Positions 17,323 through 20,368 of a stretch of 64,000 nt of DNA are shown piece after piece (within the stretch, counting starts at the first letter, position 1; every line of letters begins with the position of its first letter). The DNA comes from Candidatus Pseudobacter hemicellulosilyticus (GTDB lineage: Bacteria > Bacteroidota > Bacteroidia > Chitinophagales > Chitinophagaceae). The position numbers and the translations under genes are program-made. The DNA lies in contig CP119311.1 of assembly GCA_029202545.1 (NCBI GenBank), positions 5,276,069-5,340,068 of the forward strand. Direction: 5' to 3'. The notes beneath the pieces were generated by a model that made no database searches, was not told where the DNA came from, and saw nothing but the letters and a program-made list of their open reading frames with translations.

Positions 17323-18444
17323 ATGAAAGCGATTGTAGCCCAACTGATCTTCCTTGCTTTGCCATCTTTTGTTATGAGCCAAACAACTTACCTGCTCGTA
17401 GGCACCTACACCGGGGGTGGCAGCGAGGGCATCTATGTGTACAAATTCAACAGCCAGACCGGCGAGGCCGAGCTGGTCAGCACTGCTGCCAGCAGTAACC
17501 CCTCCTACCTGGAGGTCTCGCCCGACAAGCGCTTTGTATACGCCGTCAATGAAAATGGCGATGGCAAAGGTGCTATCAGCGCCTTTGGCTTCAATCCTGA
17601 AAACGGTCAGCTGGTCTTTAGCAATGAAGAACTCACTCACGGGGATCATCCCTGCCATGTCAGCATTGACAAAACCGGCAAATGGGCGGTAGCATCCAAT
17701 TATTCCGGCGGCAACTTCGCCGTATTCGGGATCGGTGATGACGGCAGCCTGCGGCCCGCCTCCCAGATCATCAAACATGCCGGCAAAGGCCCCCATCCGG
17801 ACCGCCAGGAAGGACCGCATGTGCATTCGGCCTGGTTCTCTCCCGATAACCGCTACCTGCTGGTCATGGACCTGGGCACTGATAAGCTCATGACCTATGC
17901 TTTTGACGCTACCAGCGGCAAAGTAATACCTGCTCCTGTTCCTTTTACAGCTACCGCTCCTGGCGCCGGTCCCCGGCATTTTGCGTTCAGCCCCTCGGGG
18001 AAATTCGGGTATGTGATAGAAGAGCTGACAGGCGCCGTATCCGCCTACCAGTATGCCGATGGCAAACTGAAACAATTCCAGACTATTTCTTCCCTGCCGG
18101 CAGATGCCAAAGTGGCCAACAAGGACGCCGGCAGTGCAGATATTCATATCTCCCCCGATGGCAAATTCCTTTATGCCTCCAATCGCGGACAAACCAATAC
18201 CATCGCCATTTACAGCATCAATCCTGAAAATGGCAAACTGTCTTTGAAAGGACAGCAGCCCGTATTGGGCAAGGCGCCGCGCAATTTCAATTTTGATCCC
18301 TCCGGCAGATTGCTGCTGGTGGCCAATATGGACTCTGATGAAATAGTAATTTTTAAAAGAGATGCAGCAACGGGATTGCTGGAAGATAGCGGCAGGCGGA
18401 TAAAGCTGAGTAAGCCGGTTTGTGTGAAGTGGGTGGTGGAATGA
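17323..18444 (+). CDS. Lactonase family protein (6-phosphogluconolactonase-like beta-propeller), exported
   Basis: LLVGTYT, NPSYL, HPCHVS, SNYSGG, PHVHS, GAGPRHF, SADIHISPDGKFLYASNRG and PRNF motifs, with a signal peptide. Confidence 0.9.
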   Translation: MKAIVAQLIFLALPSFVMSQTTYLLVGTYTGGGSEGIYVYKFNSQTGEAELVSTAASSNPSYLEVSPDKRFVYAVNENGDGKGAISAFGFNPENGQLVFSNEELTHGDHPCHVSIDKTGKWAVASNYSGGNFAVFGIGDDGSLRPASQIIKHAGKGPHPDRQEGPHVHSAWFSPDNRYLLVMDLGTDKLMTYAFDATSGKVIPAPVPFTATAPGAGPRHFAFSPSGKFGYVIEELTGAVSAYQYADGKLKQFQTISSLPADAKVANKDAGSADIHISPDGKFLYASNRGQTNTIAIYSINPENGKLSLKGQQPVLGKAPRNFNFDPSGRLLLVANMDSDEIVIFKRDAATGLLEDSGRRIKLSKPVCVKWVVE

Positions 18445-19140
18445 TCAGGGAATTCGGTTTTCGGAAGGAGGAGTATTAGCTGAGCGGGATAATGGTATAA
18501 TAGACTGCAGGCCATCAATATGATCGATCATCGAATCATCCACATTGTTCCACATCGGATCCAAAATGAAGTCCACACCTTCTCTCCGGGCAACTTTGGA
18601 AGCCGGCACAAAATCTGCATCGCCTCCAATTAAAACAATCTGGGTAACCAGTTTCTTAAACGCCAAAAGCGCTATATCGATACCAATTTTCATATCAACC
18701 CCCTTTTGACGCAACTCATAATGCAGATCTTCTTCCTTCAGATCCGCTACGCTGACAGAGCCTTGCACCAATTCCTTCGCCAGTCCAGGTTTCAACAGCC
18801 AATTCTTGGAATCTTTCAGCATTCCCATTCTAAGCGCTATTTTGCGCTTTCTCCTTAATGCATCAAAAAAAGCGGTCTTAAAGCTATACAATGCAGATTT
18901 TCGGAAATCAAGAGATTTCTTTGAAACAGGATGATGAACCCTTTTATCAAAAGGCTTACAATCATAATAGAATATCCTGTATAAATGATTATCTCTTACA
19001 TGCTCCAGCGCTATATTGTACAAATTTTCCGCTACCTCTTCCGGCGAGTGGGTGCGGGATGGATTTACCAGCGAAAAATATCGCTTAAGAAAAAATCCTC
19101 CATCAATTAAAACAGCAACAGTCTGTACATCCCGCCTCAT
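18445..19140 (-). CDS. NYN domain (LabA/DUF88, PIN-like fold) putative ribonuclease
   Basis: VAVLIDGGFF, LYRIFYYDC, LRQKGVDMKIGIDI, GGDADFVPA and ARREGVDFILDPM: the acidic tetrad looks intact. The ATG at 19140 is preferred because the longer ORF start lies inside the upstream hairpin. Confidence 0.88.
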   Translation of the reverse strand: MRRDVQTVAVLIDGGFFLKRYFSLVNPSRTHSPEEVAENLYNIALEHVRDNHLYRIFYYDCKPFDKRVHHPVSKKSLDFRKSALYSFKTAFFDALRRKRKIALRMGMLKDSKNWLLKPGLAKELVQGSVSVADLKEEDLHYELRQKGVDMKIGIDIALLAFKKLVTQIVLIGGDADFVPASKVARREGVDFILDPMWNNVDDSMIDHIDGLQSIIPLSRSANTPPSENRIP

Positions 19141-19158
19141 AAATCGCTTTATAGGTAT

Positions 19159-19231
19159 AAAAAAAACTGCTCCCGGGTCAAGCATCTCTCTATGGGTGTA
19201 TTGAGTATGCGTCTGCCGGGAGCGCTATGAT
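19159..19231 (-). ncRNA. Candidate ~70-nt structured leader RNA/terminator upstream of the NYN gene
   Basis: Minus strand reads GCTCCCGG-CAGAC-GCAT-A-CTC-(14-nt loop)-GAG-ATGC-TTGAC-CCGGGAGC-AG-T8. It lies between a consensus promoter and the NYN ATG. The 5' end is estimated. Confidence 0.55.
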
Positions 19232-19235
19232 GAAA

Positions 19236-19267
19236 CAAAACTACGTATACCCTACATTGTTACCAAA
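19236..19267 (-). promoter_or_regulatory. Bacteroidota sigma-A promoter TTTG-N20-TAGTTTTG driving the RNA/NYN unit
   Basis: -33 TTTG at 19267-19264, -7 TAGTTTTG at 19243-19236, 20-nt spacer: a full consensus match. Confidence 0.8.
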
Positions 19268-19297
19268 TTTATTTTAAACTTTTTAAAAATATATTCT

Positions 19298-20368
19298 CTA
19301 ACCTATATCATCAGCTGATTTCAACCCATTTTCCTCATCCAGCCTGGGCCGCAGGCGGGACCTGGACTTATTGAACACATGGTTCTTTCCCTTATCCTGA
19401 CCTTTCCTCGCTTCTTTTTGAACAGTTATCGGTTGTGCTACCGTGTCAGCACATTCCTGGCTGCAGCAGCCATTGTATTTCTCCGCACAGGCGGGACATT
19501 GGATGAACAATAAATGGCAGCCGTCGTTTTTGCAGTTCACATGGGTATCTGCCGACTGGCCGCACTGGTGACAGCGGGCAATGATATCATCGGTGATCCG
19601 CTCTCCCATCCTGTCGTCAAACACGAAATTCTTGCCGATGAATTTGCTTTCCAGTCCTGCCTCCTTTACCTGTCTGGCATAATTGATAATGCCACCCTCC
19701 AGGTGGAAAACATTATTGAAGCCATTGTGCAGCATATAGGCGCTGGCTTTCTCACAGCGGATGCCACCGGTGCAATACATGATGATGTTCTTATCCTTAT
19801 TGCCCTGCAGCATATCCACCGCCATGGGCAATTGCTCACGGAAAGTATCACTGGGCACTTCGATGGCTTTTACAAAATGGCCTACCTCATATTCGTAGTG
19901 GTTGCGCATGTCCACAATGATGGTATCAGGATCATCCAGCAAAGCATTCATCTCCGCTGCATTGAGGTAGCTGCCTTTCTGGCTCATATCAAAACCGGGA
20001 TCAGCAATGCCATCGGCTACGATCTTATCCCTGACCTTGATCTTCAGTACCCAGAACGATTTTCCATCATCATCCACGGCAATGTTGAGGCGCAGCCCCT
20101 CCAGGCCGGGAATGGCATAGAGGGTTTGCCGGAATGCCTCCACATGGGATTGCGGAATGCTGACCTGTGCGTTGATGCCTTCCTTGGCTACATAGATGCG
20201 ACCAAAGACCTTCAGGGCAAACAGGGACTGGTACAGCTCATCGCGGAATGCCTGCGGATCCGGAATGGGAAAATACTGGTAAAAGGAAATGGTGGTGCGG
20301 GGTTCTGTTTCCTGGTATAAACGTTCTTTCAGCTCCTTCTGGGAGACGCGGTTGTGTAGAAATGCCAT
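19298..20368 (-). CDS. trhO: Rhodanese-related sulfurtransferase / tRNA uridine(34) hydroxylase
   Basis: [55 protein letters not shown], and a Cys-rich C-terminus. Confidence 0.92.

What the first reader, a model, noticed from the sequence alone, without database searches (positions are those of the whole stretch)
18445..19267. Candidate RNA-antitoxin system: consensus promoter -> ~70-nt structured RNA with terminator -> NYN/PIN ribonuclease
Seen in sequence (minus strand): a full TTTG-N20-TAGTTTTG promoter (19267-19236). It is followed at once by a multi-helix hairpin with an 8-bp GC stem (19223-19216 with 19176-19169), a symmetric 5x5 internal loop, a 4-bp plus 3-bp inner stem with a bulged A, and a 14-nt loop. 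AG and T8 (19166-19159) come next, and the NYN ATG lies 18 nt further on. The protein keeps the acidic PIN-like residues (IDGG, QKGVD, GDADF). Established: type III TA systems (ToxIN/CptIN/TenpIN) and AbiF-type RNase toxins put a small antitoxin RNA and a terminator directly ahead of an RNase toxin, so that RNA is made in excess of toxin. Inference: this may be an analogous NYN-based toxin/RNA-antitoxin or anti-phage module. The hairpin is more elaborate than a plain terminator needs, and a constitutive promoter that fires straight into a terminator is most simply explained if the short RNA is itself the product.
Basis: partly seen in the sequence, partly recalled or inferred. Interest (0 to 1): 0.85.

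Follow-up and report, generated by a model that had tools for sequence, protein, structure and literature searches.

The report
Conserved RNA hairpin guarding NYN nuclease
A small structured RNA that ends in its own terminator sits directly in front of an uncharacterised NYN ribonuclease gene here and in bacteria of at least nine phyla, and also in plasmids and temperate phages; it matches no Rfam family and may be a new RNA-controlled toxin or phage-defence module.

Summary
On the minus strand there is a Bacteroidota-type promoter (19267-19236), an 8-bp-closed two-helix hairpin (19223-19169), T8 (19166-19159) and the NYN ATG at 19140.

A covariance model built from 12 homologous loci finds the element directly 5' of the NYN gene in about 69 of 80 genomes. 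These span Bacteroidota, Gammaproteobacteria, Acidobacteria, Planctomycetes, Spirochaetes, Verrucomicrobia, Lentisphaerae, Ignavibacteria and Clostridia. The window copy scores 30 bits (E=1.6e-5). All 16 base pairs show compensatory changes, and 96% of cells are paired.

No Rfam 15 family matches, and no paper I could search describes it.

The layout is constant: promoter, a 5-7 nt tail, the hairpin, a U-tract, then the start codon. No antiterminator is present.

The module has no conserved protein neighbour. It is found on plasmids and temperate phages, including the rex position of lambdoid phages, the integrase-proximal cargo region of a P2-like phage, and defence islands.

In phage contigs the same RNA sometimes precedes other cargo (AbiD, a RelA/SpoT-like protein) or stands alone.

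The toxin/RNA-antitoxin reading is therefore plausible but unproven. A purely cis-acting regulatory leader is a serious rival. No RNA-seq data could be obtained.

The parts
19264..19267 (-). -33 element TTTG of a Bacteroidota-type promoter
   Evidence: Sequence. It forms part of the only TTTG-N17-22-TANNTTTG match in the window.
19236..19243 (-). -7 element TAGTTTTG. The predicted transcription start is about A19228, 5 nt before the outer stem.
   Evidence: Sequence. In the homologous loci that carry it, TAnnTTTG most often ends 12 nt before the outer stem, as here. The start site is inferred, not measured.
19163..19231 (-). Structured RNA motif. This is the covariance-model hit and the only one in the 64-kb window.
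   Evidence: cmsearch with R1 gives 30.1 bits, E=1.6e-5, over the full model length. Fold z = -3.94.
19216..19223 (-). P1 5' strand, GCUCCCGG
   Evidence: All 8 P1 pairs show compensatory changes across 73 sequences.
19211..19215 (-). 5' side of the internal loop, CAGAC. The family consensus is CAGUA(C/A), so the U is missing here.
19203..19210 (-). P2 5' strand, GCAU-A-CUC, with a bulged A at 19206
   Evidence: All 8 P2 pairs show compensatory changes.
19189..19202 (-). Apical loop of 14 nt containing the semi-conserved AUAG box
19182..19188 (-). P2 3' strand, GAGAUGC
19177..19181 (-). 3' side of the internal loop, UUGAC. The family consensus is CCGANC.
19169..19176 (-). P1 3' strand, CCGGGAGC. 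This is also the terminator stem.
19159..19166 (-). U-tract (T8) of the intrinsic terminator
   Evidence: In 67 of 70 homologous loci at least 5 of the 9 nt after P1 are T.
18445..19140 (-). NYN (PIN-like) nuclease gene of 231 aa, stop codon included. It belongs to the subfamily PHROG 5783.
   Evidence: Pfam NYN 8e-7. PHROG 5783 at 2.8e-80. AlphaFold2 pLDDT 91, best PDB match the MARF1 NYN domain. The acidic residues D13, D149, D174 and D176 are invariant.

Best explanation
This is a self-contained two-part module: a structured RNA of about 65-90 nt and a NYN-type ribonuclease.

How it is built. A constitutive promoter fires 5-7 nt ahead of a two-helix hairpin. The hairpin's basal helix, together with the U-tract that follows, forms an intrinsic terminator. 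Most transcripts should therefore end there and yield the short RNA. Only read-through transcripts carry the NYN reading frame, which starts 0-60 nt after the U-tract and has no promoter of its own.

What is shown. The RNA family exists, covaries and keeps a fixed layout. It is tied to this NYN subfamily: 17 of 18 motif copies in metagenome contigs are followed by NYN. The module has no conserved protein neighbour. It moves between phyla and sits on plasmids, temperate phages and defence islands.

What is inferred. The RNA is the nuclease's cognate partner. It is made in excess and keeps the nuclease in check, either as an inhibitor (a type III-like RNA antitoxin) or as the operator of an autoregulatory terminator, or both. 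The module would then act as an addiction or abortive-infection element, released when RNA synthesis stops or the RNA is degraded. Orphan RNA copies in phages would be remnants or counter-defence decoys.
For: Structure and covariation. The MAFFT-only seed of 12 sequences is 92.7% paired. 14 of 16 pairs have changes on both sides, and slid controls reach 34-60% paired. On 73 model-aligned sequences, 96% of cells are paired, 16 of 16 pairs are compensatory and 0 of 500 shuffles reach the score.

Association. The model hits directly 5' of the NYN gene, on the same strand, in about 69 of 80 genomes, and only once in the window. RNA-first searches give 17 of 18 metagenome hits with NYN 0-33 nt downstream.

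Layout. The promoter box sits at a fixed distance, 67 of 70 loci have a U-tract, and Shine-Dalgarno sequences lie after the U-tract in non-Bacteroidota. There is no antiterminator. P1 is in the minimum-energy fold in 62 of 68 loci, and blocking it costs 9.7 kcal/mol on average. The 5' tail is too short to compete.

No protein partner. 116 Pfam families are found among 102 neighbours.

Nuclease intact. Acidic residues are invariant and the fold is NYN.

Mobility and conflict context.
- 167 plasmid records carry the gene, including Campylobacter pTet, Xanthomonas plasmids and a Thermus megaplasmid. In the Thermus record the gene lies between a helicase and an N6-methylase.
- 65 phage records carry it.
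- In a lambdoid phage it sits between cI and N, the position rexAB holds in lambda.
- In phiE202 it sits between a toxin-antitoxin pair and the integrase.
- It occurs in an Odoribacter prophage.
- The RNA is present in these elements.

Other points. Four disrupted NYN genes keep a high-scoring RNA. In E. coli phages the protein is 38% identical, and the RNA has diverged to another hairpin-terminator with the same layout. The RNA thus tracks the protein rather than the host.
Against: I have no expression data. The short RNA, its excess and read-through are therefore all predicted.

Toxicity and RNA-protein binding are untested.

In viral contigs about half of the motif copies are not followed by NYN. 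Some precede a RelA/SpoT-like protein, a 125-aa ORF followed by AbiD, a 288-aa unknown or an RNA-polymerase alpha-CTD-like protein. Others stand alone next to integrases. These copies have canonical sequence, so at least part of the RNA's constraint does not depend on a NYN gene in cis.

The RNA is a single copy, not a repeat array.

Many chromosomal copies, this one included, sit among housekeeping genes rather than in defence islands.
Confidence: 0.4

Rival explanations
1. The RNA is a purely cis-acting regulatory leader. On this view it is a terminator-embedded sensor, either riboswitch-like or the target of a host factor. It keeps toxic or defence cargo silent and lets RNA polymerase through only when a conserved ligand or factor binds the internal or apical loop. 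The short RNA would be a by-product, not an antitoxin.
For: The same canonical RNA precedes unrelated genes at the usual short distance: a 288-aa unknown at 11 nt and an alpha-CTD-like protein at 20 nt. It also lies upstream of AbiD and of a RelA/SpoT-like gene. One RNA in front of varied genes is the usual signature of cis-regulatory RNAs.

Unpaired nucleotides are conserved across nine phyla (CAGUA(C/A)G / CCGANC). This fits a universal ligand or host factor.

Terminator-embedded aptamers have a precedent in the HMP-PP riboswitch (PMC6478431, listed).
Against: No alternative (antiterminator) pairing exists. The 5' tail is only 5-7 nt, and blocking P1 costs about 10 kcal/mol.

94% of motif copies in metagenomes precede one protein family of unknown function.

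The internal loop is not invariant. Bacteroidota, the window copy and the E. coli phage version all differ, which is unusual for a small-molecule pocket.

Several phage copies have no downstream gene at all.
Confidence: 0.3
2. The RNA is the nuclease's substrate, cofactor or specificity subunit in a non-toxic role. That role could be RNA processing or control of phage or plasmid gene expression. NYN would be a regulated RNase, not a toxin. The terminator would simply set the stoichiometry.
For: RNA and protein are tightly linked and both are well conserved, at about 50% protein identity across phyla. Bacterial LabA-type NYN proteins have been linked to regulation, as in cyanobacterial LabA, and none has been shown to be a toxin (PMC5499597). 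Many copies sit among housekeeping genes.
Against: The distribution is patchy and mobile. The module sits at cargo or moron positions in phages and plasmids, next to toxin-antitoxin, Abi and restriction-type genes. Disrupted NYN copies occur (E. coli O157 remnant). There is no conserved target gene nearby.
Confidence: 0.17
3. The element is nothing special. The hairpin is just the intrinsic terminator of the upstream gene (trhO/UPF0176), and the promoter match is chance.
For: The hairpin lies 75-130 nt after the trhO stop on the same strand. One promoter-pattern match per window is expected by chance.
Against: The element follows the NYN gene, not trhO. It is found 5' of NYN in about 69 of 80 genomes with unrelated neighbours. 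In about 40% of loci the upstream gene is divergent. P2 and the loops are conserved and covary, which a terminator does not need. The promoter box sits at a fixed distance.
Confidence: 0.02

Closest known systems
Type III toxin-antitoxin systems (ToxIN, CptIN, TenpIN)
   Same: The order is the same: one promoter, the antitoxin RNA, an intrinsic terminator, then an endoribonuclease gene, so that RNA outnumbers toxin. Both lack a protein antitoxin, are carried on plasmids and phages, and have an abortive-infection role or context. Phages are known to carry antitoxin-like RNA as an escape route (own knowledge: Blower et al. 2012).
   Different: The toxin fold here is NYN/PIN-like, not ToxN/AbiQ. 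The RNA is one structured hairpin, not tandem repeats. The terminator is the RNA's own basal helix rather than a separate hairpin. No Rfam ToxI-type model matches. Inhibition and processing are untested.
abiF and DUF3800 RNA motifs (Weinberg et al. 2017, in Rfam)
   Same: A single structured RNA sits directly upstream of a putative toxin or abortive-infection gene and is proposed to be antitoxin-like. In one phage contig this RNA lies upstream of an Abi_2/AbiD gene.
   Different: No covariance-model match to those families, even at E<=10 on short stretches. The structure is different. The associated protein is different. The 2017 paper's main text does not mention NYN or LabA.
VapBC and other PIN-domain toxins (type II TA)
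   Same: A small PIN-superfamily nuclease with four conserved acidic residues on a mobile, patchily distributed module.
   Different: No upstream protein antitoxin gene. The only conserved partner is an RNA. The domain is of the NYN branch and carries a beta-rich insertion of about 80 residues.
IsrK/AntQ of the Gifsy-1 prophage (PMC4825925)
   Same: A prophage promoter gives a short terminated RNA and also a read-through mRNA for a harmful protein. The short form acts in trans on the long form.
   Different: The sequence, structure and protein are unrelated. IsrK is confined to Salmonella, whereas this module spans phyla.
Terminator-embedded aptamer of the HMP-PP (thiS) riboswitch (PMC6478431)
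   Same: The conserved recognition structure is built into the terminator hairpin itself.
   Different: That RNA controls thiamin genes and has a competing structure. This one has no alternative pairing and goes with nuclease or defence cargo.
RexAB and other immunity-region exclusion genes of lambdoid phages
   Same: In E. coli lambdoid phages the NYN module, with its own promoter, sits between cI and N. That is where lambda carries rexAB (lambda map from own knowledge).
   Different: The proteins are unrelated. An exclusion phenotype has not been tested.
LabA/NYN proteins (PF01936; PDB 2QIP; MARF1 NYN 5YAA)
   Same: The catalytic fold and acidic residues are shared.
   Different: The Pfam match is weak and partial (residues 138-191). 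The PDB sequence profile search reaches only E=0.7 to 2QIP. The subfamily is distinct (PHROG 5783, function unknown).

Membership tests
Type III toxin-antitoxin system | Toxin is an endoribonuclease of the ToxN/AbiQ (or CptN/TenpN) fold | tested here: not met
   Pfam gives only NYN. PADLOC gives only a weak NYN hit. The structure model matches the MARF1 NYN domain best.
Type III toxin-antitoxin system | Antitoxin is an array of tandem RNA repeats processed by the toxin | tested here: not met
   Tandem Repeats Finder finds nothing in 18900-19500. There is one copy of the motif per locus.
Type III toxin-antitoxin system | One promoter, then the RNA, then an intrinsic terminator, then the toxin gene | tested here: met
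   promoter box at a fixed distance, a U-tract in 67 of 70 loci, and the start codon 0-60 nt after it. The promoter and terminator are predicted from sequence.
Type III toxin-antitoxin system | RNA binds and inhibits the toxin; the toxin is growth-inhibitory | not testable with these tools
   Needs expression, rescue and binding experiments.
Known RNA families upstream of toxin genes (Rfam abiF, DUF3800-I to X, ToxI, CptI, TenpI) | Covariance-model match | tested here: not met
   No relevant match in the window at E<=10, in 15 loci at gathering score, or in two short stretches at E<=10.
NYN domain (PF01936, PIN-like superfamily) | Profile match above the curated cut-off | tested here: met
   30.1 bits against a cut-off of 24.2, over residues 138-191 only.
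NYN domain (PF01936, PIN-like superfamily) | Conserved acidic active-site residues and the NYN fold | tested here: met
   D13, D149, D174 and D176 are invariant in 72 homologues. The model has pLDDT 91, and Foldseek gives probability 1.0 to 5yaa.
Intrinsic (Rho-independent) terminator | G+C-rich stem followed directly by a U-run | tested here: met
   An 8-bp stem with 7 G-C pairs, then AG and T8. Termination itself has not been measured.
Riboswitch / transcription attenuator | Mutually exclusive terminator and antiterminator structures | tested here: not met
   P1 is in the minimum-energy fold in 62 of 68 loci. Blocking it costs 9.7 kcal/mol on average. The 5' tail is 5-7 nt.
Riboswitch / transcription attenuator | Binds a small-molecule ligand | not testable with these tools
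   Needs in-line probing or a similar assay.
Anti-phage defence system (catalogued) | Match to a PADLOC-DB model of a known or candidate system | tested here: not met
   Only E=0.0015 to the PDLC01154 NYN model, over 45 residues.

The most novel reading that the evidence does not exclude
The RNA is a portable, terminator-embedded 'safety catch' that mobile elements place in front of different toxic effectors (NYN, AbiD, a RelA/SpoT-like enzyme and others). It would either sense a conserved infection cue or act as a broad decoy. Temperate phages would carry orphan copies to disarm NYN modules of the hosts they enter. That would make it the first RNA of its kind shared by unrelated defence effectors across bacterial phyla.
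Probability: 0.15. Interest if true: 0.92.

Novelty: new variant of a known kind. Interest (0 to 1): 0.8.

Why it matters
Bacterial LabA-type NYN nucleases form a very large family. More than 7,800 clusters at 90% identity matched this query, and a 2017 classification of the PIN-like superfamily states that functional studies of bacterial NYN domains were then still lacking (PMC5499597).

A covarying partner RNA gives that family a concrete, testable handle. It provides a defined RNA to bind, cleave or titrate, and a defined regulatory step (termination against read-through) to measure.

If the module is a toxin/RNA-antitoxin or abortive-infection system, RNA-antitoxin logic would extend beyond the ToxN fold to the PIN/NYN superfamily. 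It would also add a compact defence gene common in prophages, including the immunity region of E. coli lambdoid phages, and in plasmids.

If instead the RNA is a general leader for toxic cargo, it would be a new class of cis-regulator spread by mobile elements.

There is also a practical point. Gene callers often extend the NYN reading frame through the RNA, so public annotation hides the element.

Tried and rejected
Expression data.
- The window sequence is held only by two DNA 'decomposition metagenome' runs.
- Rumen metatranscriptomes gave single contigs at depth about 2 on a Prevotella NYN ORF and nothing on the RNA.
- One locus led only to very large single-cell RNA-seq runs filed under a coded organism label, and I did not lay them. 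Another gave no runs.
- So the short RNA is neither shown nor excluded.

Alignment. A plain MAFFT alignment of 24 upstream regions was mis-registered and gave only 4 consensus pairs. I replaced it with a 12-sequence seed that aligns cleanly and then with model-based alignment.

Solved structures. The sequence profile search of the PDB found no useful relative.

Pattern scans. The loose DNA pattern scan of viral contigs returned mostly chance matches, with 7 true hits among 120 loci. Adding the U-tract to the pattern fixed this.

Ideas rejected.
- Leader peptide. The apparent 'PK(A/G)FF' conservation seen is the translated P1 3' strand plus U-tract. Compensatory changes and the variable distance to the ATG rule out a coding constraint.
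- Terminator of the upstream gene (see rivals).
- A conserved operon partner.
- tRNA-likeness or any Rfam family.

Literature. Searches for an NYN-associated RNA, an NYN toxin-antitoxin system or NYN in phage defence found nothing relevant.
Full report
OBSERVATION.
- TTTG is at 19267-19264, followed by 20 nt and TAGTTTTG at 19243-19236.
- GCTCCCGG (19223-19216) pairs with CCGGGAGC (19176-19169).
- AG and T8 (19166-19159) follow, and ATG 19140 lies 18 nt further on.

RNAfold reproduces the described anatomy: an 8-bp stem, a 5x5 internal loop, an inner stem of 4 bp plus a bulged A plus 3 bp, and a 14-nt loop. The energy is -24.7 kcal/mol and z is -3.94.

The promoter pattern is the only match in 64 kb, but about one match is expected by chance. 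Its weight comes from its position relative to homologues, described below.

The ORF is a NYN protein (Pfam 8e-7, above the curated cut-off). Homologues show that translation starts at 19140. The earlier ATG at 19185 lies inside the RNA loop.

THE RNA IS A CONSERVED, COVARYING FAMILY. The protein has more than 7,800 relatives. I fetched 80 genomic loci from Bacteroidota, Gammaproteobacteria, Acidobacteria, Planctomycetes, Spirochaetes, Verrucomicrobia, Lentisphaerae, Ignavibacteria, Clostridia and others.

The 140 nt upstream of the gene share an obvious element. It reads AUAG(C/U)G, P1 (GCYCUUGG), CAGUA(C/A), P2, an apical loop with AU(A/C)G, P2', CCGAN(C), P1' (CCAAGRGC) and a U-run.

A 12-sequence MAFFT seed with the two helices marked is 92.7% paired. 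14 of 16 pairs have changes on both sides, and partner-slid controls fall to 34-60% paired.

A covariance model from that seed finds the element immediately 5' of the NYN gene, on the same strand, in about 69 of the 80 loci. It finds it once in the window, at 19231-19163 (30.1 bits, E=1.6e-5). Several of the misses have the element by eye.

On the 73 aligned matches, 96% of cells are paired, all 16 pairs have compensatory changes, and no shuffle of 500 reaches the covariation score. That alignment is fitted to the model, so I treat the seed result as the cleaner test.

The window copy is a slightly off-consensus member. Its internal loop is CAGAC/UUGAC instead of CAGUA(C/A)/CCGANC. The consensus loop resembles a loop E / sarcin-ricin (AGUA/GA) motif. 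That resemblance is my inference from memory, not a test.

IT MATCHES NO RFAM FAMILY. None of the 4,227 Rfam 15 families matches. I checked the window at E<=10, 15 loci at gathering score, and two short stretches under the most permissive filters. That excludes abiF, DUF3800, ToxI, CptI and TenpI.

The main text of the 2017 paper on 224 motifs and the 2024 paper on 50 genomes mention neither NYN nor LabA. Other literature searches found no NYN-associated RNA. A 2017 classification of PIN-like domains states that functional studies of bacterial NYN domains are lacking.

FIXED LAYOUT. I examined 70 loci.
- The Bacteroidota -7 box TAnnTTTG ends 12 nt (mode) before P1, exactly as in the window.
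- In other phyla a TAnnnT -10 box ends 14 nt (mode) before P1.
- Both place the start site 5-7 nt before P1, at the A of the AUAG box.
- 67 of 70 loci have at least 5 T in the 9 nt after P1.
- The start codon follows after 0-60 nt, with a Shine-Dalgarno sequence after the U-tract in non-Bacteroidota. There is no room for a second promoter.

There is no antiterminator. P1 is in the minimum-energy fold in 62 of 68 loci, and forbidding it costs 9.7 kcal/mol on average. There are no tandem repeats.

In about 40% of loci the upstream gene is divergent. The hairpin is therefore not the terminator of a neighbour.

THE PROTEIN. The AlphaFold2 model is confident (pLDDT 91). Its best solved relative is the MARF1 NYN domain (Foldseek probability 1.0). 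Sequence profiles find no solved structure.

The acidic residues of the PIN-like site are invariant. A beta-rich insertion of about 80 residues (roughly 62-146) sets this subfamily apart. It corresponds to PHROG 5783, function unknown. It is not a catalogued defence protein.

CONTEXT. The 102 flanking genes belong to 116 Pfam families, with no recurrent partner. The RNA and the nuclease form the whole module.

The gene is on 167 plasmid records, mainly Campylobacter pTet and Xanthomonas plasmids. On a Thermus megaplasmid it lies between a helicase and an N6-methylase.

It is also on 65 phage records.
- In a lambdoid E. coli phage it lies between cI and N, where lambda carries rexAB.
- In P2-like phiE202 it lies between a toxin-antitoxin pair and the integrase.
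- In an Odoribacter prophage it lies between two phage gene blocks.

The model finds the RNA in phiE202, Moraxella phage Mcat4, the Xanthomonas and Thermus plasmids, the Odoribacter prophage and, weakly, pTet.

The E. coli phage version (38% protein identity) has no model hit. It does have the same layout with a different hairpin-terminator: TTGACG-17-TAGATT, a 7-bp stem, T7, and ATG 10 nt later, with z = -3.6.

RNA-FIRST SEARCHES. I seeded searches with a DNA pattern and confirmed hits with the model.

In metagenome contigs, 17 of 18 motif copies are followed by NYN within 33 nt. In four of these the reading frame is disrupted.

In viral contigs the picture is different. Ten copies have NYN, and eight or nine do not.
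- One lies after a cI-like repressor and 254 nt before a RelA/SpoT-domain protein.
- Two copies with the same promoter sit in a defence island beside a SIR2 protein (PADLOC candidate-system model PDC-S25). One precedes a 125-aa ORF plus AbiD, the other a 288-aa unknown.
- One precedes an RNA-polymerase alpha-CTD-like protein.
- Several stand alone beside integrases. One of these follows Abi_2 genes, and one overlaps a truncated ToxN-type ORF on the other strand.

MECHANISM. These points are shown: the RNA family, its fixed promoter-hairpin-U-tract-gene layout, its near-exclusive link to this NYN subfamily outside phages, and the mobility of the module.

These points are inferred: most transcripts end at the U-tract and give a stable RNA of about 70 nt; NYN is made only by read-through; the RNA is the nuclease's partner.

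I rank the explanations as follows.
- First (0.4): the RNA restrains a harmful nuclease, as a type III-like antitoxin, an autoregulatory operator, or both. The module's only conserved partner is the RNA, the layout is that of ToxIN, the contexts are those of toxin, Abi and exclusion genes, and the RNA diverges with the protein in E. coli phages.
- Second (0.3): a purely cis-acting leader for toxic cargo. It is favoured by the non-NYN cargo. It is weakened by the lack of any alternative structure and by the orphan copies.
- Third (0.17): a non-toxic RNase with its substrate or cofactor RNA.
- Excluded: the plain-terminator reading.

LIMITS. No RNA-seq could be laid on any copy. The association counts come from pattern-seeded samples of the canonical variant only. 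E-values of the model are rough. Toxicity, binding and defence are untested.

Noticed in passing
window 19141-19185 (-); also P0117, P0098 and locus L084 3001-3066: Mechanical ORFs and public gene calls extend the NYN reading frame upstream through the RNA motif. Examples are the 246-aa ORF from 19185 here, and 256 aa against 234 aa for the Odoribacter protein. Translating the P1 3' strand plus the U-tract gives a recurrent false 'PK(A/G)FF' peptide. This hides the RNA in annotation.
   Followed up: partly
window 18444/18445: The NYN gene (minus strand, stop codon ending at 18445) and the convergent 7-bladed lactonase gene (plus strand, stop codon ending at 18444) abut with no spacer. No terminator-like hairpin lies between them.
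   Followed up: no
L217 2900-8700 (IMG/VR contig 2651870111_000002): This is a defence island in a viral contig. It holds a SIR2 protein (PADLOC candidate-system model PDC-S25, 3e-144). Two copies of the RNA motif follow, with near-identical promoters and an upstream 94-aa ORF repeat. One precedes a 125-aa ORF plus AbiD (6.6e-43), the other a 288-aa protein with no family match.
   Followed up: partly
L148 8537-10181: In a viral contig the RNA motif (51.6 bits) lies just after a cI-like HTH repressor gene and 254 nt before a 216-aa RelA/SpoT-domain protein. That protein may be a toxic small alarmone synthetase. I did not examine the 254-nt gap for another RNA or a small ORF.
   Followed up: partly
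L350 9248-9569: An orphan copy of the RNA motif overlaps the 3' end of a truncated (105-aa) ToxN-type toxin ORF on the opposite strand, next to an integrase. Two kinds of RNA-linked toxin modules appear to have collided here.
   Followed up: no
L358 9778-12686 and L349 (same phage): An orphan RNA motif (60.2 bits) lies between Abi_2-family genes and the phage integrase, with no ORF of 50 aa or more downstream on its strand. In three viral contigs the motif lies within about 200 nt of the contig or provirus end. I did not test whether it is ever part of an attachment site.
   Followed up: no
L261, L213, L236, L267: In these four loci the NYN reading frame downstream of a high-scoring RNA motif is split or truncated. 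This could be real toxin decay with the RNA retained, or assembly error.
   Followed up: no
L400 2501-3011 (E. coli O157:H7 86-24 chromosome): A degraded lambdoid prophage keeps cI, the hairpin-terminator and only the first 129 codons of the NYN gene, followed by an integrase remnant. About 200 of the 275 E. coli genomes with this region have only the 5' half.
   Followed up: partly
L090 130-6705 (Thermus thermophilus megaplasmid): The RNA-NYN module sits between a helicase-related gene and an N6 DNA methylase whose start overlaps the NYN stop by 4 nt. Here it may be part of a larger restriction- or BREX-like operon.
   Followed up: no
L004 3772-3888: A SAM-I riboswitch (76.7 bits) lies about 90 nt after the NYN gene of a Bacteroidetes MAG, upstream of the next gene. 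It is unrelated to the finding.
   Followed up: no
L009-L037 (Bacteroidales loci), e.g. L010 2863-2949: Bacteroidales carry a variant of the motif. AUUAYGC replaces AUAGYGC, GAUAAUGG lies before P2', and an extra hairpin of 15-25 nt is inserted in the apical loop. The seed model scores these copies poorly (15-27 bits). A model of its own would be needed.
   Followed up: partly
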